From the sequence record KX009778: a DNA stretch of 64,000 bases. The stretch is one strand, 5' to 3'. Under the pieces are notes generated by a model that saw nothing but the letters and a program-made list of their open reading frames with translations, did no database searches and was not told the origin of the DNA. Below, piece after piece: positions 2,230 to 38,597 of the stretch. This DNA is from Escherichia phage UFV-AREG1. The translations under genes and the position numbers were made by a program. Position 1 is the stretch's first letter. Every line of letters begins with the position of its first letter.

Positions 2230-3430
2230 ATTTTGTAATAATGTCAAACTGTTCTTTAAAGCAGAAGCTTGAATCTTGATGCTGATACAAAAATTCATAT
2301 GCTTTTTCTCGCTCATGATCATAAAGAGCTCGGTCAGATGACAGTTCTTTAATACGTTCAAATGTTGATTCCATATCATTTTCATCAAACCAAATGATAC
2401 CGCTATCATGCGAGGTCAAAGGAGTATTATCAACACGGAATTTTAAATTTTCGCCAGTAGATTTCCAAAATACTGGAATTGTTCCACACGCGCCAAGCTC
2501 GAGATGAGTATATTCTAAAGAACGTTGTAGATATTTTTTGTCCAACTTACTCAGCTGATAACCAAATCCGGATTTACTCATGCGTTCAAGCATTTCGCTA
2601 TTTACATAACGGTCAAGAATTTGCGTTGGCAAATTAGGAGCAATTTTAATTTGGTCTACTTGATGAAGACGATAATACTCGTATGGAATTCCTTTTTCTT
2701 TAATAGGAATGAACGCTGGAGAACGTTCCAGACCTTCCATAATAGTACTTAGTCCTGCAGGTTTAAGATGTTTTTCGTGAAAATCAAACATCTGATAAAA
2801 ACCTTTCCATGTAGTCGTACGACCAATCCAACGGTTGATATTCATGTTAATTTCAGAAACATCTTTCCAGTAGGTTGACCGAACCTTCGCAATATCCATA
2901 GGAGGCTGAAAGTTATATACTGTCGGTGCTTCTTCAATATCATCAAACAGAGAAACAGTTTCTGGATACCACTCTTTCATCAGAACTTTATTAAAATCAC
3001 CATTATCAGAATGGCTAAAAATAACATCAGCTCGACGAACAGTTTCTTCTAATCCCAAATTTCGACGCAAAGAAAGAGAAGAATGGTCATGTTGATAAAC
3101 TACAACACGAACAGAAGGTTTAATGTTATCAATAATTTTTTTATAGTTATTAATAGTGTCTTCTTCAACCGAAGTAGCAGGAACTGAATTGATAATTAGA
3201 ATATCACAATCATTTACCAGCTTAAGTGTTTTATCATATTCTTTTGCCAATAAAACCGGAATTGAAAATGATTTATAATCATGCGCGCAGTTACGAGTAA
3301 ATGATTTATCTTTAGCATAAACCAAAGTTACTTCATGACCATTTTTAATAAACCAATCACGCTGCTCAAGAGAAAATTTAGTTACACCGCAACCTTCAAG
3401 ACCTCGAGCCATAAAAATACATACTTTCAT
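2228..3430 (-). CDS. a-gt: DNA alpha-glucosyltransferase
   Basis: 400-aa ORF MKVCIFMARGLEGCGVTKFSLEQRDWFIKNGHEVTLVYAKDK; near-identical to recalled T4 alpha-gt N-terminus and same length. Confidence 0.9.
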   Translation of the reverse strand: MKVCIFMARGLEGCGVTKFSLEQRDWFIKNGHEVTLVYAKDKSFTRNCAHDYKSFSIPVLLAKEYDKTLKLVNDCDILIINSVPATSVEEDTINNYKKIIDNIKPSVRVVVYQHDHSSLSLRRNLGLEETVRRADVIFSHSDNGDFNKVLMKEWYPETVSLFDDIEEAPTVYNFQPPMDIAKVRSTYWKDVSEINMNINRWIGRTTTWKGFYQMFDFHEKHLKPAGLSTIMEGLERSPAFIPIKEKGIPYEYYRLHQVDQIKIAPNLPTQILDRYVNSEMLERMSKSGFGYQLSKLDKKYLQRSLEYTHLELGACGTIPVFWKSTGENLKFRVDNTPLTSHDSGIIWFDENDMESTFERIKELSSDRALYDHEREKAYEFLYQHQDSSFCFKEQFDIITK

Positions 3431-26798: not shown

Positions 26799-27336
26799 TT
26801 ACTATTTCCAAAAGTTTATTATTTTTAAGGTAGTTAGCCTTTTCTAGGACTTCAGAAGCATATTTAGAACCAGCTTTAACATTCCATCCCGAGTTATAAG
26901 AGGATATAGCTTTTCTTATATCACCCTTATGTATATTTAACCAATAAGAAAGTTCAATGTACGCCCAGGAAGCTGAATTGGACCGTTTATTCAACATTCT
27001 TTTTATTTCGGCATCGGTCATATTATAACCAAGTTCCTTAACTCTTGCTCGCATGGTCGGCAAATAATTTTGGAACATTCCGTAGGCATGATGCTTTGGT
27101 TTAGATTTTAAATTAACTCCGGCAGAGCTTTCTTGCCATAAAATAGCAGCCATTATATGACCTAATCCGCTTTTATGGATATTTTTGTGTGTTTTATATT
27201 TTCCATCCTTAGAAAATTGTTCCCCGAATTGATACGCGTAACGCATGTTATCGAGTTGGACATTACTGAAAGTATGCTCGGAGCTATGCGCCATCATTGA
27301 AATGGCCAATAGACCAGCGAGTAGTGCTTTTCTCAT
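26791..27336 (-). CDS. secreted lytic transglycosylase-like protein (SLT domain)
   Basis: 181-aa ORF with signal peptide and SLT-like motifs WQESS and AYGMFQ. Confidence 0.6.
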   Translation of the reverse strand: MRKALLAGLLAISMMAHSSEHTFSNVQLDNMRYAYQFGEQFSKDGKYKTHKNIHKSGLGHIMAAILWQESSAGVNLKSKPKHHAYGMFQNYLPTMRARVKELGYNMTDAEIKRMLNKRSNSASWAYIELSYWLNIHKGDIRKAISSYNSGWNVKAGSKYASEVLEKANYLKNNKLLEIVND

Positions 27337-27343
27337 GCTTACC

Positions 27344-27805
27344 TCATTGAGTTTTAATTACTGCTTTAGAAGCCTTTCCTGGTAAACGACGACTGTTGAT
27401 AATGGCCATCCTACATTGAAGTGACGGGTCTTTGAACTTCGCATTGGGTTTACAAACTGTAAATCCAAGCCAAAGATTTCCATCTGTGATTTCTAAACGC
27501 CCAGGACGATATTCAACCCCATCAATAAAATCCTCGTCAATGTCAGGACGCGGAGGCATACTCAGGAATTCATTAACTTCTAAAACATGGTCTTTTATTT
27601 TATGGAATAATTCAAAAACATATGTCTCATCAATCTCCCGTTGAATTGCACGATCAAGAAGATGCTGAGAATATTTTAGATGAAACGATGAGACCCCTGC
27701 TGCTTTTGATGCCTCACGAATCTCATTGTTAATTTGACGAAACTCCGACTCAAAGTGACGACGGAGCTTATTTCGACGGATAAAAACTTCTGTGTTGATA
27801 GTCAT
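27344..27805 (-). CDS. regB: Endoribonuclease RegB
   Basis: 153-aa ORF MTINTEVFIRRNKLRRHFESEFRQ; matches recalled T4 RegB; early promoter upstream. Confidence 0.9.
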   Translation of the reverse strand: MTINTEVFIRRNKLRRHFESEFRQINNEIREASKAAGVSSFHLKYSQHLLDRAIQREIDETYVFELFHKIKDHVLEVNEFLSMPPRPDIDEDFIDGVEYRPGRLEITDGNLWLGFTVCKPNAKFKDPSLQCRMAIINSRRLPGKASKAVIKTQ

Positions 27806-27832
27806 GTTATTCTCCTCTTAACTGATAGAAAA

Positions 27833-27862
27833 ATTATACCACAGTCAAGAGGAAAAGTAAAC
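27833..27862 (-). promoter_or_regulatory. Early promoter upstream of regB
   Basis: Minus strand GTTTAC-18nt-TATAAT, then GAGGAG SD and regB ATG. Confidence 0.65.
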
Positions 27863-27864
27863 AG

Positions 27865-28143
27865 TTATTCTTTAAATCTAATCAATTTATTCATAGACTT
27901 TGTAACTTCTGCACGAACCTCATGCAGGTTTTTAAGCTGTTCAAGACGCTGCTCATAGTAAGCAATTTCATCTTCTTCGAGACAGTCCTGTGAATCTTCT
28001 TTAAGATAACGTGCATAGTCCTGGAAAGCTTTACGGACTACTTCTTGGAAGTCATCAAGACTTTGAATTTTCTTAGGAGCAACAGATACACGACGAGGGG
28101 CAGTATAATACTCATAACCAAACCCTGCGCTTAATTGAGCCAT
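27865..28143 (-). CDS. hypothetical protein
   Basis: ORF trimmed to ATG at 28143 (TAATG overlap with upstream stop). Confidence 0.5.
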
Positions 28144-28409
28144 TAATATTTTTCCTCTGGTTGGAACACAGCACGACAAGCCCACATACTGGCTTCTTTG
28201 AGTTTCGTTTTAGCAATAGTTAACTGATCGAGGCTTTCAGCATAATTCTTTGCGAATTCACAGTCTTCACAATTATCCAGTGCTTCCCAGAATTCATCAT
28301 ATAAAGCATCAAAGATAAGTCCTAAACGAACTTCAGCGTCTTTGATAGCATTCACCTTACCGATTTTCTCTTCAGTGTGCGGCTTATAACCTTTAATGTC
28401 TTCAATCAT
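28143..28409 (-). CDS. hypothetical protein (88 aa)
   Basis: ORF track. Confidence 0.5.
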
Positions 28410-28623
28410 ATTCTACTTCCTCACCAGTACCCAAATCATATTCAACTAAACGAATAGGTTCATGAATGCCATATCCTTGAACAGAAATTTCTGTCGTAGG
28501 ATAAATTCCATCAATATCACCCATATTCCACGCTTCGTTAAATTGCTGTTCGCCTGAATTACTAAACCACTCGGCGAAAGCATTTAGCACATCTTTAGAA
28601 CCTTCAATAATTATCTTTGCCAT
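28402..28623 (-). CDS. hypothetical protein (73 aa)
   Basis: ORF track. Confidence 0.5.
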   Translation of the reverse strand: MAKIIIEGSKDVLNAFAEWFSNSGEQQFNEAWNMGDIDGIYPTTEISVQGYGIHEPIRLVEYDLGTGEEVEYD

Positions 28624-28985
28624 TACAAACTCTTGGTGAATGTACGAGCGATAACGTCGCGCTGCTGTTCCGGAGTCAGAGAGTTAAAGCGAACTGCATA
28701 ACCGGATACACGGATGGTCAGCTGCGGATATTTTTCCGGATGCTTAACTGCATCTTCCAGAGTTTCACGACGCAGAACGTTAACGTTCAGATGTTGACCA
28801 CCTTCAACTTTAACTGTAGGCTGTTGCTCAATTTCAATTTCACGGGCATGCAAACCGTAGAAAATTTCTGGGTCTACAAAAGAGTCCTCTTTAAAGGTTT
28901 TAGAGACAATAATTCGTGCTTGAATACCATCTTCAAAATAAATAGTACCTTTATGTGTGCCTTCAAGAATTTGATATGCTTTCAT
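28623..28985 (-). CDS. Autonomous glycyl-radical cofactor, GrcA/YfiD-like
   Basis: 120-aa ORF; C-terminal half [57 protein letters not shown] contains glycyl-radical motif RVSGY and matches recalled E. coli GrcA almost exactly. Confidence 0.85.
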
Positions 28986-28992
28986 ATAAACC

Positions 28993-29322
28993 TCAATTAG
29001 AAAATAAATTTATCCAAGATTGTTCTTTAATTAAAAATGGCTCAGAATCATATGCCATTAAACTCTGCGTGATTAGTCCTTTAAAAGGTCCATCAATAAA
29101 TTCCATGGTAAAATATGGAATTTTATTCATTAGCCGTGCATTAGGAGCAGTACATAAAACTCTGCATCCTTTGAATACACCCTTTTGTAATTTGTATTGC
29201 TTGGGATAAAATTCGCTCAAAATGTTATTATTTGCTAAAATTTCAAAATGATTCACCAATTTATTTTTAATAGTTTTTGGCGAAAAATAAAGATATTCGA
29301 AAAGCTGTGTGTCTGTCATCAT
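28993..29322 (-). CDS. hypothetical protein
   Basis: ORF 28993..29373 trimmed to internal Met. Confidence 0.45.
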
Positions 29323-29858
29323 TGCATTCCGATTACGAAAAACTGTGGACGAGTAATACCACCAATACAACATTTAATATTACAGCAGCAGTGTACAGTG
29401 TCAATATGGACACTATAAATCTTATCCATATCAGGAGATTTGACAGGCTCGTCAATTATATACAAAATTCGCGAAAGCGATAAACCTCTGAACTTGCTTC
29501 CTTTATTACCTATAAAACTACGCACAGAATCAGTAAATAAACGAAAACGTATATCATCATTAGAATAACGCGAAAATTCCTTTTTAATGTTATTTGCAGA
29601 AATTTTAGCGTAAGCTGAAGTATTAGAAAGAACAATAACTGTTCCACCGTCATACAACCAATTAGCGGCAAAATTAGTTACTGCAGTTGATTTACCAGAT
29701 TGACGTCCACCATCTAGTCGAAGTGTGCAATACTGCTTAAGTAAGTCTTCAAATGGCGGGATATATTCGTTTTTACAAATTTCTTCTACTCTAGCGTCAG
29801 AATGGTGTGTAAAAGCATTCATCAGGGATAGATAAGGACCAGTTAAAAATGTTCTCAT
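29319..29858 (-). CDS. small P-loop NTPase (179 aa)
   Basis: Walker A DGGRQSGKST and Walker B-like ILYIIDEP. Confidence 0.6.
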   Translation of the reverse strand: MRTFLTGPYLSLMNAFTHHSDARVEEICKNEYIPPFEDLLKQYCTLRLDGGRQSGKSTAVTNFAANWLYDGGTVIVLSNTSAYAKISANNIKKEFSRYSNDDIRFRLFTDSVRSFIGNKGSKFRGLSLSRILYIIDEPVKSPDMDKIYSVHIDTVHCCCNIKCCIGGITRPQFFVIGMQ

Positions 29859-30010
29859 TTCTTCTCTCTAAATTTGGGCCATTCCATGGCGCATGAATTG
29901 TCCATTTCTGTATTTACCCATTACCGCACTTGGGCTCGACCTTATTACAGGTTGGCGGGAATCCCTCACAGAATCATGAGGTCCAGCTTGTTCCCATATT
30001 TCTTATTTGC

Positions 30011-30484
30011 TTATTTGAATGATTTAACGTACTGAATAGAACCTTTACTATTCACAAAGGCAATTTTACCATTTTTGTTATACATGGTAGCAGTACGCTG
30101 ATAGCCATAAGTTTGTTTACCAGATTGATAACCAACTAATGCGAAATTATCTTCACCCATTTTATTCTGTTTAGCGCGAATACGTTCATGGCCATGTGCC
30201 ATAAGAACCTTAGCATCACCAGTTGCAATGGATCGACGAGTTTTTTCATCTTCAACTGTATTAACAAAATCGTCAAATGAATCAAATTTAGCATGAGATT
30301 TATTATACAGTTTTCCATCTACTGCATAATTATATCCTTGTACATCCATCTCAACTTCTGTACCATCATCCAATACAGCAGTGATTTTCTGACCTTTTTT
30401 AAATTTCAAAAGATCAGTAAAAGATTCAGCAATAATTTGAGAATTAATAGCTGCTTCAGTGATAAATTCTTGATATGTTTTCAT
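30011..30484 (-). CDS. Head internal protein candidate with capsid-targeting sequence (ipIII position)
   Basis: N-terminus MKTYQEFITEA matches T4 internal-protein CTS cleaved by prohead protease; located just downstream of e on the minus strand as in T4; body unlike recalled T4 IPIII. Confidence 0.7.
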   Translation of the reverse strand: MKTYQEFITEAAINSQIIAESFTDLLKFKKGQKITAVLDDGTEVEMDVQGYNYAVDGKLYNKSHAKFDSFDDFVNTVEDEKTRRSIATGDAKVLMAHGHERIRAKQNKMGEDNFALVGYQSGKQTYGYQRTATMYNKNGKIAFVNSKGSIQYVKSFK

Positions 30485-30538
30485 ATGTTTCCTTTAAATA
30501 TTTTAATTAGTAATTTGTCTCTTCAAGCAACTGTGAAT

Positions 30539-30568
30539 ATACTATCACAATTCTAGGAGAAAGTAAAC
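30539..30568 (-). promoter_or_regulatory. Early promoter upstream of ipIII-position gene
   Basis: Minus strand GTTTAC-18nt-TAGTAT. Confidence 0.55.
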
Positions 30569-30572
30569 AACT

Positions 30573-31541
<969 letters not shown>

Positions 31542-31560
<19 letters not shown>

Positions 31561-31904
31561 TCACTCACAAACTCTTTCATTGATTCATTTTCAATATAAG
31601 ACATGTAGCTATTATATTCTTTTAATTGTATTTTGTAATCCTTTTTTCTTTGCCAATTTATTTTAAAATTATCATAATGAAAATATAACATGGTACCAAA
31701 GAATGAAAATAATGAAATAATTTTAGTATAGTGAAGTTCACTCCAAACTTCTGTTATATTTACTGTGCCGTCGATGTTTAAAATAAGACAGTCAATTAAC
31801 AATCCAAAAAGACTACCCGCAAGAGCTGCAGCCAACGCCACAGCAAAAATTAAAAATGACTCAGGAAGCGAATATTTGACTTTATTTAGTTTTGGCTTTT
31901 GCAT
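31542..31904 (-). CDS. membrane protein (120 aa)
   Basis: ORF track; hydrophobic segments. Confidence 0.5.
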
Positions 31905-35698: not shown

Positions 35699-35775
35699 TG
35701 GCCAGGGTGAAAGGATTCTAACCTTTAACCTGCGGTTTAGAGGACCGCTACTCTATACAATTGAGTTACACCCCG
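35699..35775 (-). tRNA. tRNA-Arg (anticodon UCU), CCA encoded
   Basis: Hand-folded cloverleaf: acceptor CGGGGTG/CACCCTG, D-stem ACTC/GAGT, anticodon stem GCGGT/ACCGC with loop CCUCUAA, T-arm AAAGG-TTAGAAT-CCTTT; position 33 is C, which is atypical. Confidence 0.6.
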
Positions 35776-35901
35776 TAATTAGTTCACAGCAATACCTACT
35801 CCAACAATCAAGATGTCTTCACACGAAATTAAGAGAAAAGTGATCAGTTCAACCCTTATAATCGCGTCAAGTAGATATTAATGTGACAACTGTCACAAGT
35901 T

Positions 35902-35976
35902 TGGCGGACATGCATGGATTCGAACCATGGACCAATTGATTAACAGTCAACTGCTCTACCACTGAGCTACACATCC
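35902..35976 (-). tRNA. tRNA-Asn (anticodon GUU), CCA encoded
   Basis: Hand-folded: GGATGTG acceptor, TAGCTCAGTGGTAGAGC D-arm, anticodon loop CUGUUAA, T-loop GGTTCGAATCC. Confidence 0.7.
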
Positions 35977-35980
35977 AAAT

Positions 35981-36067
35981 TGGTGGGGAGTGATGGAGTC
36001 GAACCACCCGAGTCGCAATGACAATGGATTTACAGTCCACACCGCTACCTCTACGGGATAACTCCCC
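35981..36067 (-). tRNA. tRNA-Tyr (anticodon GUA), long variable arm, CCA encoded
   Basis: Hand-folded: anticodon arm GTGGA-CUGUAAA-TCCAT, 87 nt with long variable arm typical of bacterial tRNA-Tyr. Confidence 0.65.
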
Positions 36068-36076
36068 AAATTAATT

Positions 36077-36153
36077 TGGTGACCCAGACCAGATTTGAAC
36101 TGGTAACCTTTCCCTTATGAGGGGACTGCTGCTAACCATTGAGCTACAGGGCC
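36077..36153 (-). tRNA. tRNA with CAU anticodon (Ile2 or Met), CCA encoded
   Basis: Hand-folded: acceptor GGCCCTG, anticodon loop CUCAUAA, T-arm ACCAG-TTCAAAT-CTGGT. Confidence 0.65.
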
Positions 36154-36154
36154 T

Positions 36155-36230
36155 TGGTGCTGATTGACGGAATCGAACCGCCGACATCCTCATTACAAGT
36201 GAGGTGCTCTACCTACTGAGCTAAATCAGC
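36155..36230 (-). tRNA. tRNA-Thr (anticodon UGU), CCA encoded
   Basis: Minus strand GCTGATTTAGCTCAGTAGGTAGAGCACCTCACTTGTAATGAGG...GGTTCGATTCC...CACCA; matches recalled T4 tRNA-Thr. Confidence 0.85.
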
Positions 36231-36232
36231 AA

Positions 36233-36319
36233 CGGAGGCGATAGGATTTGAACCTATGAGTCGCCGGAGCGACTGCCGGTTTTCAAGACCGGTGCATTAA
36301 ACCACTCTGCCACGCCTCC
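36233..36319 (-). tRNA. tRNA-Ser (anticodon UGA), type II, CCA not encoded
   Basis: Hand-folded: acceptor GGAGGCG, anticodon arm CCGGT-CUUGAAA-ACCGG, long variable arm, T-loop GGTTCAAATCC. Confidence 0.8.
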
Positions 36320-36321
36320 AG

Positions 36322-36395
36322 TCTCCATACAAGGATTTGAACCTTGGACCTCCTGATCCCAAATCAGGCGCTCTACCAAACTGAGCTACACGGAG
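36322..36395 (-). tRNA. tRNA-Pro (anticodon UGG), CCA not encoded
   Basis: Hand-folded: CTCCGTG acceptor, D-arm TAGCTCAGTTTGGTAGAGC, anticodon loop UUUGGGA, T-loop GGTTCAAATCC. Confidence 0.8.
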
Positions 36396-36405
36396 TAAAT
36401 TAAAT

Positions 36406-36479
<74 letters not shown>

Positions 36480-36485
36480 AAACTT

Positions 36486-36572
36486 TGGTACGAGAAGTGG
36501 GACTCGAACCCACAAGGAAATCATTCCGCAGCATTTTAAGTGCTGTGCCTTTACCAATTTGACCATTCTCGC
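36486..36572 (-). tRNA. tRNA-Leu (anticodon UAA), type II, CCA encoded
   Basis: Hand-folded: GCGAGAA acceptor, anticodon arm CAGCA-CUUAAAA-TGCTG, long variable arm, T-loop GGGTTCGAGTCCC. Confidence 0.8.
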
Positions 36573-36573
36573 G

Positions 36574-36646
36574 CTGGGAATAAAGGACTCGAACCTTTGC
36601 ATCTAGCAGTCAAAGTGCTATGCCTTACCAACTTGGCTAATTCCCA
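36574..36646 (-). tRNA. tRNA-Gln (anticodon UUG), CCA not encoded
   Basis: Hand-folded: TGGGAAT/ATTCCCA acceptor, anticodon arm TAGCA-CUUUGAC-TGCTA, T-loop AAAGGTTCGAGTCCTTT; abuts tRNA-Leu with 1-nt spacer. Confidence 0.8.
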
Positions 36647-37662: not shown

Positions 37663-37887
37663 TTATTCAACGCCAGCGGCTTTCAAAAGTTTTTTAAGAT
37701 TGGCAACACCTTGAGCAGAAAATGTGACCTTGCCACCTTTTTCACTGATAGAACCAACCAATTTAGCAAGTTTATCATTAGGAATTTTTTTAAAATCAGC
37801 CAATGTTCCATCAAAGGTTTTTGAAACAAAAGGCAGTTCGTCTTCGCGTCTTTTAGCTTCTACAATAAATTCTTGATATGTTTTCAT
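37663..37887 (-). CDS. Head internal protein candidate with CTS (74 aa)
   Basis: N-terminus MKTYQEFIVEA; own early promoter-stem-loop upstream. Confidence 0.65.
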   Translation of the reverse strand: MKTYQEFIVEAKRREDELPFVSKTFDGTLADFKKIPNDKLAKLVGSISEKGGKVTFSAQGVANLKKLLKAAGVE

Positions 37888-37955: not shown

Positions 37956-38264
37956 CTATTTTATTCCGCGTGATGCAATTGTGTTCTGCCGTTTAACGCC
38001 AGTTTGTTTAAAGTCATGATTGTCGATTTGATCGGTACGAGCAACTCCGAATGATGATTTGATCTTAGCTTTAGATCCTTTAGTTATAGAAATAAACATC
38101 TCGGAAGCCCCTTTCTTAAAGTCCGAAGCGATTACTTCAACGCCGTTCTTAGCAAGTGACTTCAGAATTGCCTCTGCATACTCATCGTCAAGACTCGTCT
38201 GAGTATTAATAACGAATGTCTTTGGCGCAGCCGCTTCATTGATAAATTCTTTGAAAGTTTTCAT
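37956..38264 (-). CDS. Head internal protein candidate with CTS (102 aa)
   Basis: N-terminus MKTFKEFINEA; own early promoter-stem-loop upstream. Confidence 0.65.
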   Translation of the reverse strand: MKTFKEFINEAAAPKTFVINTQTSLDDEYAEAILKSLAKNGVEVIASDFKKGASEMFISITKGSKAKIKSSFGVARTDQIDNHDFKQTGVKRQNTIASRGIK

Positions 38265-38324: not shown

Positions 38325-38597
38325 TCATTTTAAATAAATTGCGTATTTTTTATAACCCGCTGACTCATGACGAAGACCCTTATCATTAGCAAAACGCTCA
38401 ATGTTGTTAATTTGATTCTGGTCAAGTTCAGAGATGTCAAACACGAAAAAGTTACGTTTGTTACCAACTGTTACATAGTCAGTTAAATCAATATCATATA
38501 GGTAATTGATGTCAGCAATCAAAGTCTTGACAGCTTTGCTAATTTTTACTTTTTCGTTAAAAGTAGCTTCATTGATAAATTCTTGATATGTTTTCAT
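38325..38597 (-). CDS. Head internal protein candidate with CTS (90 aa)
   Basis: N-terminus MKTYQEFINEA; own early promoter-stem-loop upstream. Confidence 0.65.
   Translation of the reverse strand: MKTYQEFINEATFNEKVKISKAVKTLIADINYLYDIDLTDYVTVGNKRNFFVFDISELDQNQINNIERFANDKGLRHESAGYKKYAIYLK

What the first reader, a model, noticed from the sequence alone, without database searches (positions are those of the whole stretch)
30011..30568. ipIII-position gene carries a CTS but an unrecognised body; denV and ipII not found in the regB-to-e interval
The gene immediately downstream of e starts MKTYQEFITEA, but its 157-aa body does not match what I recall of T4 IPIII. None of the ORFs between regB and e resembles T4 endonuclease V (denV) or IPII; instead the interval holds a GrcA-like protein, a small P-loop NTPase and a 150-bp GC-richer spacer. 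This suggests module replacement at a known variable locus.
Basis: partly seen in the sequence, partly recalled or inferred. Interest (0 to 1): 0.4.

Follow-up and report, generated by a model that had tools for sequence, protein, structure and literature searches.

The report
Known Ip4 cassette plus conserved RNA
The odd gene after the lysozyme gene is Ip4, a packaged "internal protein" already named in phage T2 and its relatives, so the missing denV/ipII/ipIII genes are an ordinary, known cassette swap. The "GC-rich spacer" beside it, however, is a conserved, unannotated RNA-like element found in many unrelated phages.

Summary
The window is a T2-like Tequatrovirus, 96-98% identical to T2, RB32, AR1 and NBG2.

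**The gene.** The 157-aa gene at 30011-30484 (minus strand) is real and starts MKTYQEFITEA. It is Ip4/IpIV (Pfam DUF7412, E 6e-96; PHROG "internal virion protein"). It is named as such in the T2, RB32 and AR1 records and occurs in 469 phage records.

**What is missing.** No DenV, IPII body or IPIII body is encoded anywhere in the 64 kb. Relative to T4, only denV-ipII-ipIII (1441 bp) is replaced by the Ip4 body (453 bp). One junction lies inside the capsid-targeting-sequence codons. A relative that carries ip4 and ipIII together shows the window lost ipIII by recombination between two 47-bp repeats.

The GrcA-like and P-loop genes are T4's own vs.6 and vs.8 (95-97% identical), not replacements. 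The finding itself is therefore correct but already known.

**The spacer.** It is not junk. It is a roughly 115-nt element conserved upstream of vs.8 in 39 of 41 T4-like loci, non-coding, with covarying helices. Its three-way-junction core recurs in rV5-like, N4-like, Vibrio and jumbo phages, often beside tRNA genes, and matches no Rfam family. Its function is unknown.

The parts
30011..30484 (-). ip4 (IpIV) gene, 157 aa. CTS-bearing internal virion protein of the DUF7412 family.
   Evidence: ORF. Pfam PF24183, 319 bits against a cut-off of 27. PHROG 3155 'internal virion protein', E 6e-102. The homologous CDS is named Ip4/ipIV in AR1, RB32 and T2.
30455..30484 (-). Codons 1-10, MKTYQEFITE: the capsid targeting sequence, ending in the I-x-E motif of the prohead protease gp21.
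   Evidence: Read directly from the sequence. 77-91% identical to the first 11-13 residues of T4 IPII/IPIII. The cleavage rule comes from established T4 knowledge.
30425..30454 (-). Codons 11-20, AAINSQIIAE: a low-confidence linker ending in a second [ILMV]-x-E-[SA] motif. Probably a second gp21 site, which would make S21 the mature N-terminus.
   Evidence: E20 is invariant in 14 family members. Residues 10-20 have pLDDT below 50. The cleavage itself is inferred.
30453..30499 (-). A 47-bp stretch (32 nt of CTS codons plus 15 nt of RBS region) that is present twice in relatives carrying both ip4 and ipIII. This is the recombination junction of the ipIII deletion.
   Evidence: In the blastn comparison with SA21RB, window 27300-30499 and window 30453-31571 both align, and they overlap by 47 bp. 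SA21RB annotation.
30000..30452 (-). The segment with no T4 counterpart (the Ip4 body). It replaces 1441 bp of T4 (denV, ipII and the ipIII body).
   Evidence: T4 homology ends at window 29999 (T4 locus position 2943, the denV stop) and resumes at 30453 (T4 4385, inside the ipIII CTS).
30537..30568 (-). T4 early-promoter-like site: GTTTAC, N14, GTGATAGTATAT. It lies upstream of ip4 and derives from the ipIII-type upstream region.
   Evidence: Read from the sequence. The homologous site upstream of IpIII is annotated as an early promoter in SA21RB. The sigma-70 scan did not call it.
29870..29985 (-). Layout, 5' to 3': a 5' hairpin, a three-way-junction core, then a 3' domain with two A-N-G-G-A motifs.
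   Evidence: Covariance model hit of 95.9 bits, E 3e-22, the only copy in the window. nhmmer. Alignments A4 and A6 with pair counts.
29912..29960 (-). Three-way-junction core with short flanks: helix Px, hairpin ACCU-GUAAUA-AGGU, a second short hairpin, then GGUAA. This is the part shared with unrelated phages.
   Evidence: Pattern hits in IMG/VR and metagenomes. 48-sequence MAFFT alignment A7 and its pair counts.
29855..29905 (-). A 16-codon upstream ORF (MDNSCAMEWPKFREKK) inside the element. Its TGA overlaps the vs.8 ATG (ATGA). It is kept in T4 but not in other genera.
   Evidence: Read from the sequence. The frame is not conserved in Mineola, L029 or L031.
29319..29858 (-). vs.8, a 179-aa P-loop NTPase of unknown function. 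It is the backbone gene downstream of the element.
   Evidence: 95-98% identical to T4 Vs.8. PHROG 1488 matched full-length, 177 positions. Walker A GGRQSGKS.
28623..28985 (-). vs.6, a GrcA-like glycyl-radical cofactor. Backbone gene.
   Evidence: Pfam Gly_radical, E 2e-18. 97% identical to T4 Vs.6.
30573..31067 (-). e, the T4 lysozyme gene. It forms the right-hand border of the cassette locus.
   Evidence: 97% identical to T4 gpe. Pfam Phage_lysozyme.

Best explanation
**Identity of the locus.** The window comes from a T2-type T-even phage. The interval between vs.8 and e is a cassette locus for injected head proteins and denV. Here it holds a single cassette, ip4.

**How Ip4 most likely works.**
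- Ip4 is made with the 10-residue capsid targeting sequence MKTYQEFITE.
- That sequence carries it into the scaffolding core of the prohead.
- The gp21 prohead protease removes it after Glu10, and probably cuts again after Glu20.
- The basic mature protein (pI about 9.1) is packed with the DNA and injected with it.
- By analogy with IPI (which inhibits GmrSD) and IPIII (needed on E. coli ECOR17), it most likely disarms a host defence that acts on entering DNA.
- Shown here: gene identity, the CTS, family membership and the anatomy of the locus. Inferred: packaging, cleavage, injection and any anti-defence role.

**How the arrangement arose.** Homologous recombination occurred between the near-identical CTS/RBS sequences that head every ip gene. 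This deleted ipIII from an ip4-ipIII ancestor. Lineages such as T4 carry denV-ipII-ipIII instead.

**The left border.** The locus is bounded on the vs.8 side by a conserved, structured, non-coding RNA-like element on the mRNA strand, upstream of vs.8. Its three-way-junction core is a module shared with small RNAs in the tRNA clusters of unrelated phages. It probably binds a conserved host or phage factor.
For: **Phage identity and synteny.**

**Ip4 family.**
- Pfam DUF7412, 319 bits.
- PHROG 3155.
- 14 clusters, all from T4-like phages.
- Only 8 representatives among 1.84 billion proteins.
- 469 phage records.

**Absent genes.** No DenV, IPII body or IPIII body in the window.

**Breakpoints and architectures.**
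- Breakpoints and the 47-bp repeat.
- Alternative architectures in Sf24, CGG4-1, Mineola and L023.

**Ip4 protein properties.**
- CTS plus an invariant E20.
- pI 9.14.
- Literature: IPs are diverse apart from the CTS and are thought to be defence inhibitors (PMC3012670); IPIII is required on ECOR17 and IPI inhibits GmrSD (PMC9391042).

**RNA element.**
- Blocks are near-identical where the flanking genes are only about 72% (DNA) or 38-45% (Vs.8 protein) identical.
- It is present in 39 of 41 vs.8 loci.
- The window has an in-frame TAG, and indels are not multiples of 3.
- Pair counts: 87-90% of cells paired against 21-44% when partners are slid; 9-12 pairs changed on both sides.
- Core pair 8:41 reads AU 21, UA 15, CG 7, UG 5, with none unpaired.
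- The core is found in other phage families.
Against: **Ip4.**
- No experiment or paper on Ip4 itself was found.

**RNA element.**
- RNAalifold finds only 8 consensus pairs at -4.6 kcal/mol.
- MFE z-scores are not significant.
- I derived the structure by eye from the same sequences.
- In the core alignment a +1 slide reaches the same covariation score, because the register of helix Px differs between classes.
- Transcription or processing of the element was not tested.
Confidence: 0.85

Rival explanations
1. The 157-aa protein is a fast-evolving orthologue of T4 IPIII (or IPII), not a different cassette.
For: It sits next to e, as ipIII does in T4. Its promoter region and first 32 nt are 95% identical to T4 ipIII. 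IPII gave a tblastn E of 1.7e-4.
Against: With the CTS removed there is no similarity (E 0.69 and E 5.1). SA21RB carries both Ip4 and a true IPIII side by side. L023 has an IPIII homologue in a genus where Ip4 homologues also exist. The two belong to separate Pfam/PHROG families.
Confidence: 0.03
2. The CTS on this gene is merely a by-product of the recombination that fused the ipIII leader to a foreign ORF, and the product is not a packaged internal protein.
For: The junction with T4-like sequence falls exactly inside the CTS codons. Packaging was not tested.
Against: Every family member in four or more genera starts with the CTS (M1, K2, F7 and E10 are invariant). This includes genomes where ip4 has its own upstream region. 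The protein is basic, like IPII and IPIII.
Confidence: 0.05
3. The 'spacer' is protein-coding: it is the N-terminal extension of Vs.8, as annotated in T4 (219 aa).
For: T4 has an uninterrupted ORF starting at an ATG inside the element. AR1 annotates a 195-aa version.
Against: The window has an in-frame TAG (MAQI*). The Sf24 annotators note that the N-terminus is missing. The PHROG profile is 177 positions long and starts at MRTFL. The variable segment is 13, 16 or 18 nt in different genera, so the conserved 3' block falls in different frames. The same core occurs away from any vs.8 gene.
Confidence: 0.04
4. The conserved element acts at the DNA level (recombination hotspot, protein-binding site or promoter), not as a folded RNA.
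For: - It marks the cassette boundary: T4 homology ends 14 nt from its 5' end.
- Cassettes insert at its 3' hairpin, which is then duplicated.
- Primary sequence is more conserved than pairing.
- Thermodynamic signals are weak.
- A GTTTAC hexamer occurs in many copies.
Against: - Compensatory changes keep the pairing: AU/UA/CG at core pair 8:41, CG/UA/GC at 27:34, and AU/GC at the closing pair of hpA.
- About 35 G-U cells would be A-C mismatches on the other strand.
- The element is always on the strand of the neighbouring genes or tRNAs.
- The putative -10 region is not conserved.
Confidence: 0.12

Closest known systems
Ip4 / IpIV of phages T2, RB32, RB14 and AR1 (GenBank annotations; Pfam DUF7412; PHROG 3155)
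   Same: 96-99% identical protein of the same length, in the same position between vs.8 and e, with the same CTS.
   Different: Nothing material. The window's copy is driven by an ipIII-type upstream region, as in T2 and RB32. In SA21RB and T4_ev240, by contrast, ip4 follows ipIII.
T4 internal proteins IPI, IPII and IPIII
   Same: N-terminal capsid targeting sequence and I/L-x-E protease motif, a basic mature protein, and a location in one of the two ip loci. They are expected to be injected with the DNA. IPI and IPIII counter host defences (PMC3012670, PMC9391042).
   Different: The mature bodies show no detectable sequence similarity. The predicted fold has no specific match. No target is known.
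Polymorphic ip loci and modular shuffling in T-even phages (Repoila et al. 1994, cited as ref. 23 in PMC3012670; 'mobile regulatory cassettes' of Arbiol et al. 2010, recalled from memory)
   Same: Cassettes with unrelated bodies are exchanged through short conserved flanking sequences. Here those are the 47-bp CTS/RBS repeat on one side and the conserved element on the other.
   Different: The left-hand boundary element is not a promoter-plus-stem-loop cassette. It is a longer conserved element with covarying helices.
T4 endonuclease V (DenV) locus
   Same: The same chromosomal slot. In Sf24 and CGG4-1, denV and ip4 sit side by side there.
   Different: denV is absent from this window. The classical UV sensitivity of T2 relative to T4 is attributed to lack of the v/denV function (my own knowledge, not tested here).
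Small stable RNAs in phage tRNA clusters (such as T4 RNA C and RNA D) and cis-regulatory leader RNAs or riboswitches
   Same: Outside T4-like phages the core lies within or beside tRNA gene arrays on the same strand. In T4-like phages it sits in a 5' leader next to an RBS. Tandem copies occur.
   Different: - No similarity to the tRNA-cluster spacers of this window; there is only one model hit in 64 kb.
- No Rfam family matches.
- No ligand or partner is known.

Membership tests
T-even CTS-targeted internal proteins | N-terminal capsid targeting sequence of the form MKTYQEFIxE | tested here: met
   MKTYQEFITE at residues 1-10. Aligns to T4 IPII/IPIII residues 1-13. The same regular expression finds three more such genes at the ipI locus.
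T-even CTS-targeted internal proteins | gp21 prohead-protease site (L/I-x-E, cut after Glu) at the end of the CTS | tested here: met
   I-T-E at residues 8-10, and a second I-A-E at 18-20 with E20 invariant. This is motif presence only; cleavage is not testable here.
T-even CTS-targeted internal proteins | Physically present in the head and injected with the DNA | not testable with these tools
   No proteomic data were accessible. A literature search for Ip4 found nothing.
Ip4 / DUF7412 (PF24183) | Full-length match above the Pfam gathering score | tested here: met
   319.4 bits against a cut-off of 27, residues 1-157 matched to profile positions 1-158.
IPIII | Sequence similarity of the mature body to T4 IPIII | tested here: not met
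   Only residues 1-13 align. BLASTP of the bodies gives E 5.1.
IPII | Sequence similarity of the mature body to T4 IPII | tested here: not met
   BLASTP of the bodies gives E 0.69.
DenV (T4 endonuclease V) | Any encoded homologue in the window | tested here: not met
   tblastn of T4 DenV against all 64 kb: best E 0.94. The rest of the genome could not be tested.
Vs.8 N-terminal coding extension (T4 annotation) | Open reading frame continuous with vs.8, and frame-preserving variation | tested here: not met
   In-frame TAG in the window. Variable segment of 13, 16 or 18 nt. The family profile starts at MRTFL.
Any described RNA family (Rfam 15) | Covariance-model match at the element | tested here: not met
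   No hit at the element, even at E up to 10, in the window, L032, L016 and 12 non-T4 loci.
Structured non-coding RNA (generic) | Conservation beyond that of flanking genes, plus compensatory base changes | tested here: met
   Caveats: weak RNAalifold and MFE signals, and a hand-derived structure.
Structured non-coding RNA (generic) | Expressed as a stable or regulatory transcript | not testable with these tools
   No transcriptome data were accessible.
CsrA/RsmA-binding RNA | Two or more A(N)GGA motifs, at least one in a hairpin loop, about 10-60 nt apart | tested here: inconclusive
   Two invariant A-N-G-G-A motifs about 18 nt apart, one in the loop of GCC..GGC, in all 33 T4-like copies. They are absent from the non-T4 versions. 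Binding was not tested.

The most novel reading that the evidence does not exclude
The 'spacer' belongs to an undescribed family of phage structured RNAs.

**The shared module.** A roughly 45-nt three-way junction: helix Px; hairpin ACCU-GURAHA-AGGU; a variable second hairpin; and a GGUAA junction strand.

**Where it occurs.** It is kept at 90% identity or more across Tevenvirinae, rV5-like, N4-like, Vibrio, Campylobacter and jumbo phages. It lies either in tRNA operons or, in T4-like phages, in the leader of the vs.8 P-loop NTPase. It is absent from bacterial genomes.

**The reading.** Such a module would be a binding site, decoy or sensor for a conserved cellular factor or small molecule that many unrelated phages need to engage. 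In T4-like phages it would also control vs.8 expression.
Probability: 0.5. Interest if true: 0.7.

Novelty: already known. Interest (0 to 1): 0.28.

Why it matters
**The finding as written.** It matters little. It rediscovers the T2-type arrangement of a classic polymorphic locus. Two points are of modest use:
- The CTS-to-CTS junction is a clean, base-level example of how T-even phages shuffle injected proteins.
- Ip4 (469 records, no known target) is an obvious candidate for anti-defence screening, now that IPI and IPIII have such roles.

**The by-product.** This could matter more.
- A conserved RNA module is currently hidden under a probably wrong N-terminal extension of Vs.8 in the T4 reference annotation.
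- The same module is shared by unrelated virulent phages, next to tRNA genes.
- If real, it adds a new phage RNA class and gives a handle on the unknown function of vs.8.

Tried and rejected
**For the RNA element**
- Rfam at permissive thresholds on the window and on 14 other loci found nothing at the element.
- tRNA/tmRNA search: the element is not tRNA-like for ARAGORN.
- RNAalifold and single-sequence MFE gave weak or non-significant signals, so they are not used as support.
- Promoter idea (GTTTAC plus a -10 element): rejected because the -10 is not conserved.
- Coding ideas (Vs.8 extension, mini-ORF MDxxCAxEWP): rejected because frames and start codons are not conserved.
- Host origin: no BLAST match in 5,426 E. 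coli genomes. There were only 4 pattern hits in 596 Gb of bacterial genomes, about what I estimate by chance. One of them, on a Pseudomonas plasmid, has no vs.8 context.
- Intrinsic terminator after the core: found in only 2 of 28 lineages.
- Resemblances to 16S rRNA positions 1497-1506 and to the RNase P S-domain, recalled from memory, were judged to be chance.

**For Ip4**
- Fold and sequence searches against PDB found no informative relative.
- NCBIfam gave nothing above cut-off.
- Literature searches for Ip4, vs.8, CsrA with T4, T4 RIL-seq, and denV with T2 returned nothing relevant.

**Not done**
- I did not check whether denV lies elsewhere in this phage's genome. Only 64 kb is available.
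Full report
**What the window is.** A 3.8-kb query spanning regB to e matches 901 phage records. The best are 96-98% identical over the full length: T4_ev240, SA21RB, NBG2, AR1, RB32/RB33, HY03 and T2. All genes in this part run on the minus strand. The order in the window is:
- regB (27344-27805)
- vs.3, vs.4, vs.5
- vs.6 (28623-28985)
- vs.7
- vs.8 (29319-29858)
- an ORF-free 152 bp
- the 157-aa gene (30011-30484)
- e (30573-31067)
- nudE

T4 itself has vs.8-denV-ipII-ipIII-e.

**Observation check.** I translated T4 DenV, IPII, IPIII, Vs.5-8 and gpe from the T4 record and ran tblastn against the whole 64-kb window.
- DenV gives nothing (best E 0.94).
- IPIII aligns only over residues 1-13.
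- IPII gives E 1.7e-4, but that rests on the shared N-terminus. With the first 11 residues removed, BLASTP of the bodies gives E 0.69 for IPII and E 5.1 for IPIII.

The one correction concerns the GrcA-like protein and the P-loop NTPase. They are T4's own Vs.6 (97% identical) and Vs.8 (95% by tblastn; 98% over the common 179 aa). They are backbone genes, not replacements.

**What the gene is.**
- The protein matches Pfam DUF7412 end to end (319 bits, cut-off 27).
- It matches PHROG 3155, "internal virion protein" (E 6e-102).
- The homologous CDS is called Ip4 in AR1, RB32, RB14 and ime09, and ipIV "internal head protein" in T2.
- The family is narrow. There are 14 clusters at 90% identity in 5.8 billion proteins, all from T4-like phages. 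A profile search of 1.84 billion representatives finds only 8 proteins.
- The family is also common. The Ip4 body DNA is found in 469 phage records: 309 at 90% identity or more (Escherichia, Shigella, Yersinia) and 160 at 60-80% (Klebsiella, Salmonella, Raoultella, Serratia).

The gene is therefore already known and named, but functionally uncharacterised. I found no paper on it.

**Anatomy of the swap.**
- blastn of window 27300-31600 against the T4 region gives two blocks. Window 27300-29999 aligns to T4 up to the denV stop codon at 96% identity. Window 30453-31571 aligns from inside the first 32 nt of ipIII onward at 95.5% identity.
- So 1441 bp of T4 (denV, ipII and the ipIII body) correspond to 453 bp here (the Ip4 body). 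The right junction falls inside the CTS codons.
- Against SA21RB, whose order is vs.8-ip4-ipIII-e, the two aligned blocks overlap by 47 bp (window 30453-30499). This overlap is 32 nt of CTS codons plus 15 nt of RBS region.
- That 47-bp unit is present twice in SA21RB, about 620 bp apart, and once here. The simplest reading is loss of ipIII by recombination between direct CTS repeats. This left ip4 under the ipIII-type early promoter (GTTTAC-N14-GTGATAGTATAT at 30537-30568).

Other relatives show further combinations in the same slot:

| Phage | Order |
|---|---|
| Sf24 | e-denV-ip4-vs.8 |
| CGG4-1 | e-hyp-denV-ip4-ip(88 aa)-vs.8 |
| Mineola | e-ip4-vs.8 |
| L023 | denV-ipIII-[element]-new ip-vs.8 |

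This is consistent with the published view that T-even internal proteins are a diverse set sharing only the CTS (PMC3012670).

**How Ip4 most likely works.**
- Shown here: the CTS, with M1, K2, F7 and E10 invariant in the family.
- Shown here: an I-T-E motif at residues 8-10, and a second [ILMV]-x-E-[SA] motif with invariant E20.
- Shown here: a low-confidence linker at residues 10-20 in the AlphaFold model (pLDDT 78.8 overall).
- Shown here: a basic mature protein (pI 9.14, compared with 9.6 for IPII and IPIII).
- From established T4 biology: the CTS targets the protein to the scaffolding core, gp21 cuts after Glu in L/I-x-E, and the mature protein is injected with the DNA.
- From the literature: IPI inhibits GmrSD. 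IPIII is required for T4 to grow on ECOR17 and works even without its CTS when supplied in the cell (PMC9391042).
- Inferred, at roughly 50% confidence: Ip4 is another injected inhibitor of a host defence.

**denV.** It is absent from the 64 kb and from the slot where T4, Sf24 and CGG4-1 carry it. Whether it lies elsewhere in this genome cannot be tested. From my own knowledge, the classical extra UV sensitivity of T2 relative to T4 is attributed to the missing v (denV) function. That fits a T2-type phage.

**The "spacer".** T4 Vs.8 as annotated (219 aa) aligns through this stretch, but the window has an in-frame TAG (…GMAQI*). PHROG 1488 is 177 positions long and starts at MRTFL. The Sf24 annotators note a missing N-terminus.

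Aligning the region from genera in which Vs.8 is only 38-45% identical showed near-identical blocks:
- CCTGTAATAAGGTCGAGCCCAAGTGCGGTAA
- ATGGAC
- GTGCCAAGGAATGGCCC

These blocks are separated by a segment of 13, 16 or 18 nt. The conserved 3' block therefore falls in different frames, and the stretch is not coding.

I collected 41 vs.8 loci from IMG/VR using the protein. Of these, 39 carry the element just upstream of vs.8 on the same strand. Other observations from the same set:
- Three loci carry two tandem copies.
- In four loci an ip cassette is inserted between the element and vs.8, with the 3' hairpin duplicated.
- A covariance model finds exactly one copy in the window, at 29870-29985 on the minus strand (95.9 bits).
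- The T4 homology break at 29999 lies 14 nt from its 5' end. The element is therefore the left border of the cassette locus.

**Is it a folded RNA?** Thermodynamic evidence is weak. RNAalifold gives 8 pairs at -4.6 kcal/mol, and MFE z-scores range from +0.9 to -1.8.

Comparative evidence is better. I derived a structure by eye with these parts:
- a 5' hairpin, CCUCA..UGAG
- helix Px, closing a three-way junction
- hairpin hpA, ACCU-GUAAUA-AGGU
- hairpin hpB
- helix P4
- hairpin hpC, GCC-AAGGAAU-GGC

| Measure | MAFFT alignment | Model-based alignment | Controls |
|---|---|---|---|
| Cells paired | 87% | 89.5% | 21-44% with partners slid |
| Pairs changed on both sides | 9 | 12 | 5.1 and 6.5 in shuffles |
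| Covariation score | 0.152 | 0.175 | 0.08 in shuffles |

About 35 G-U cells would be mismatches on the other strand, which argues for the mRNA strand. Two caveats apply: I drew the structure from these same sequences, and the second alignment is fitted to it.

**The core is not confined to T4-like phages.** I scanned with a degenerate pattern for the core, CCTGTRAHAAGGYCNAG-N6-10-CGRTAA.
- It hits 61 IMG/VR stretches and 54 metagenome stretches.
- A slightly tighter version hits only 4 stretches in 596 Gb of bacterial genomes. That is about the number I estimate by chance, and no hit has a convincing context.
- No E. coli genome has a BLAST match.
- Of 118 instances, with some contigs counted in two collections, 53 have a vs.8 homologue within 1.5 kb. 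Another 37 have no vs.8 but a same-strand tRNA gene within 1.5 kb. The remaining 28 have neither, and many of those are short contigs.

Annotated examples lie in unannotated gaps of three phages: the rV5-like phage Alma (upstream of a 7-tRNA array), the N4-like Klebsiella phage KpCHEMY26 (downstream of a tRNA array) and phage Ivi. A Vibrio phage also matches.

On a 48-sequence MAFFT alignment of cores with 9-nt flanks:
- The pair closing Px next to hpA reads AU 21, UA 15, CG 7, UG 5, with none unpaired.
- The second pair of hpB reads CG 39, UA 6, GC 2.
- The closing pair of hpA reads AU 46, GC 2.
- The overall covariation score is 0.237 against 0.090 in shuffles.
- A +1 slide also reaches 0.236, because the register of Px differs between classes. 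The exact register of Px is therefore uncertain.

No Rfam 15 family matches any version.

**What the element might do.** None of this is shown.
- Because the same core sits in tRNA operons of unrelated phages, and in two lineages is followed at once by an intrinsic terminator, I think the core is a binding module for a conserved factor or ligand. I do not think it is a vs.8-specific operator.
- In T4-like phages the added 3' domain carries two invariant A-N-G-G-A motifs about 18 nt apart, one of them in a hairpin loop. This is the pattern of CsrA sites and lies 15-25 nt from the vs.8 RBS.
- In Tequatrovirus a 16-codon uORF ends in an ATGA overlap with the vs.8 start.

These features suggest translational control of vs.8, but neither is conserved outside subgroups.

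**Verdict.** Its interpretation is broadly right but imprecise. What it found is the known T2-type Ip4 arrangement, so it is ordinary and already annotated in GenBank.

Noticed in passing
window 29870-29985 (minus strand); core about 29912-29960: The 'GC-richer spacer' is a conserved, non-coding, RNA-like element upstream of vs.8 in 39 of 41 T4-like loci. Its three-way-junction core recurs in rV5-like, N4-like, Vibrio and jumbo phage contigs, often beside tRNA genes. It matches no Rfam family and is absent from bacterial genomes.
   Followed up: yes
L004 (T4 NC_000866) 2791-2913, equivalent to window 29859-29969: The T4 reference annotates Vs.8 as 219 aa, starting at an ATG inside the conserved element. 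The family profile (177 positions), the in-frame stop in this window and frame-breaking indels in other genera all suggest the 41-residue extension is an annotation artefact.
   Followed up: partly
window 29855-29905 (minus strand): A 16-codon upstream ORF (MDNSCAMEWPKFREKK) whose TGA overlaps the vs.8 ATG (ATGA). It is kept in T4 with a 9-nt insertion, but the start codon or frame is lost in other genera.
   Followed up: partly
window 28143-28409 (minus strand): vs.4 matches the Pfam Acb2/Tad1 hairpin domain (E 7e-20). This is the family of anti-CBASS/anti-Thoeris nucleotide sponges, and it lies in the same early gene block.
   Followed up: no
window 28402-28623 (minus strand): vs.5 is an intact 73-aa ORF here and matches PHROG 1986 end to end. 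T4's annotated 59-aa Vs.5 aligns in two different frames (residues 1-17 and 17-58), so the T4 reference copy appears frameshifted.
   Followed up: partly
window 37663-37887, 37956-38264 and 38325-38597 (all minus strand): Three more CTS-bearing genes (74, 102 and 90 aa; MKTYQEFIVEA, MKTFKEFINEA and MKTYQEFINEA) at the ipI locus downstream of the tRNA cluster. The phage therefore carries at least four candidate injected proteins.
   Followed up: no
L001 (T2 LC348380) 2518-3194: In this T2 record, vs.8 is annotated only as a 110-aa 'hypothetical protein', followed by 340 unannotated bases. This suggests a disrupted vs.8 in that isolate or sequence.
   Followed up: no
L023 955-1500, and likewise L024, L026 and L038: In some Klebsiella-type T4-like phages an extra ip gene (MKTYKEFITEAKAPKVF…) is inserted between the RNA element and vs.8. 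A second copy of the element's 3' hairpin (GCCAAGGAAYGGCCC) lies at the far end, which suggests the hairpin is a recombination site.
   Followed up: partly
window 35699-36646 (minus strand): A cluster of 10 tRNA genes (Gln, Leu, Gly, Pro, Ser, Thr, Met, Tyr, Asn, Arg). A 126-nt spacer between tRNA-Asn and tRNA-Arg shows no similarity to the conserved element.
   Followed up: partly
L018 1226-1475, L028 1233-1481, L044 1255-1500: Two tandem copies of the element's core upstream of vs.8 in some T4-like contigs. The first copy lacks the 3' domain.
   Followed up: partly
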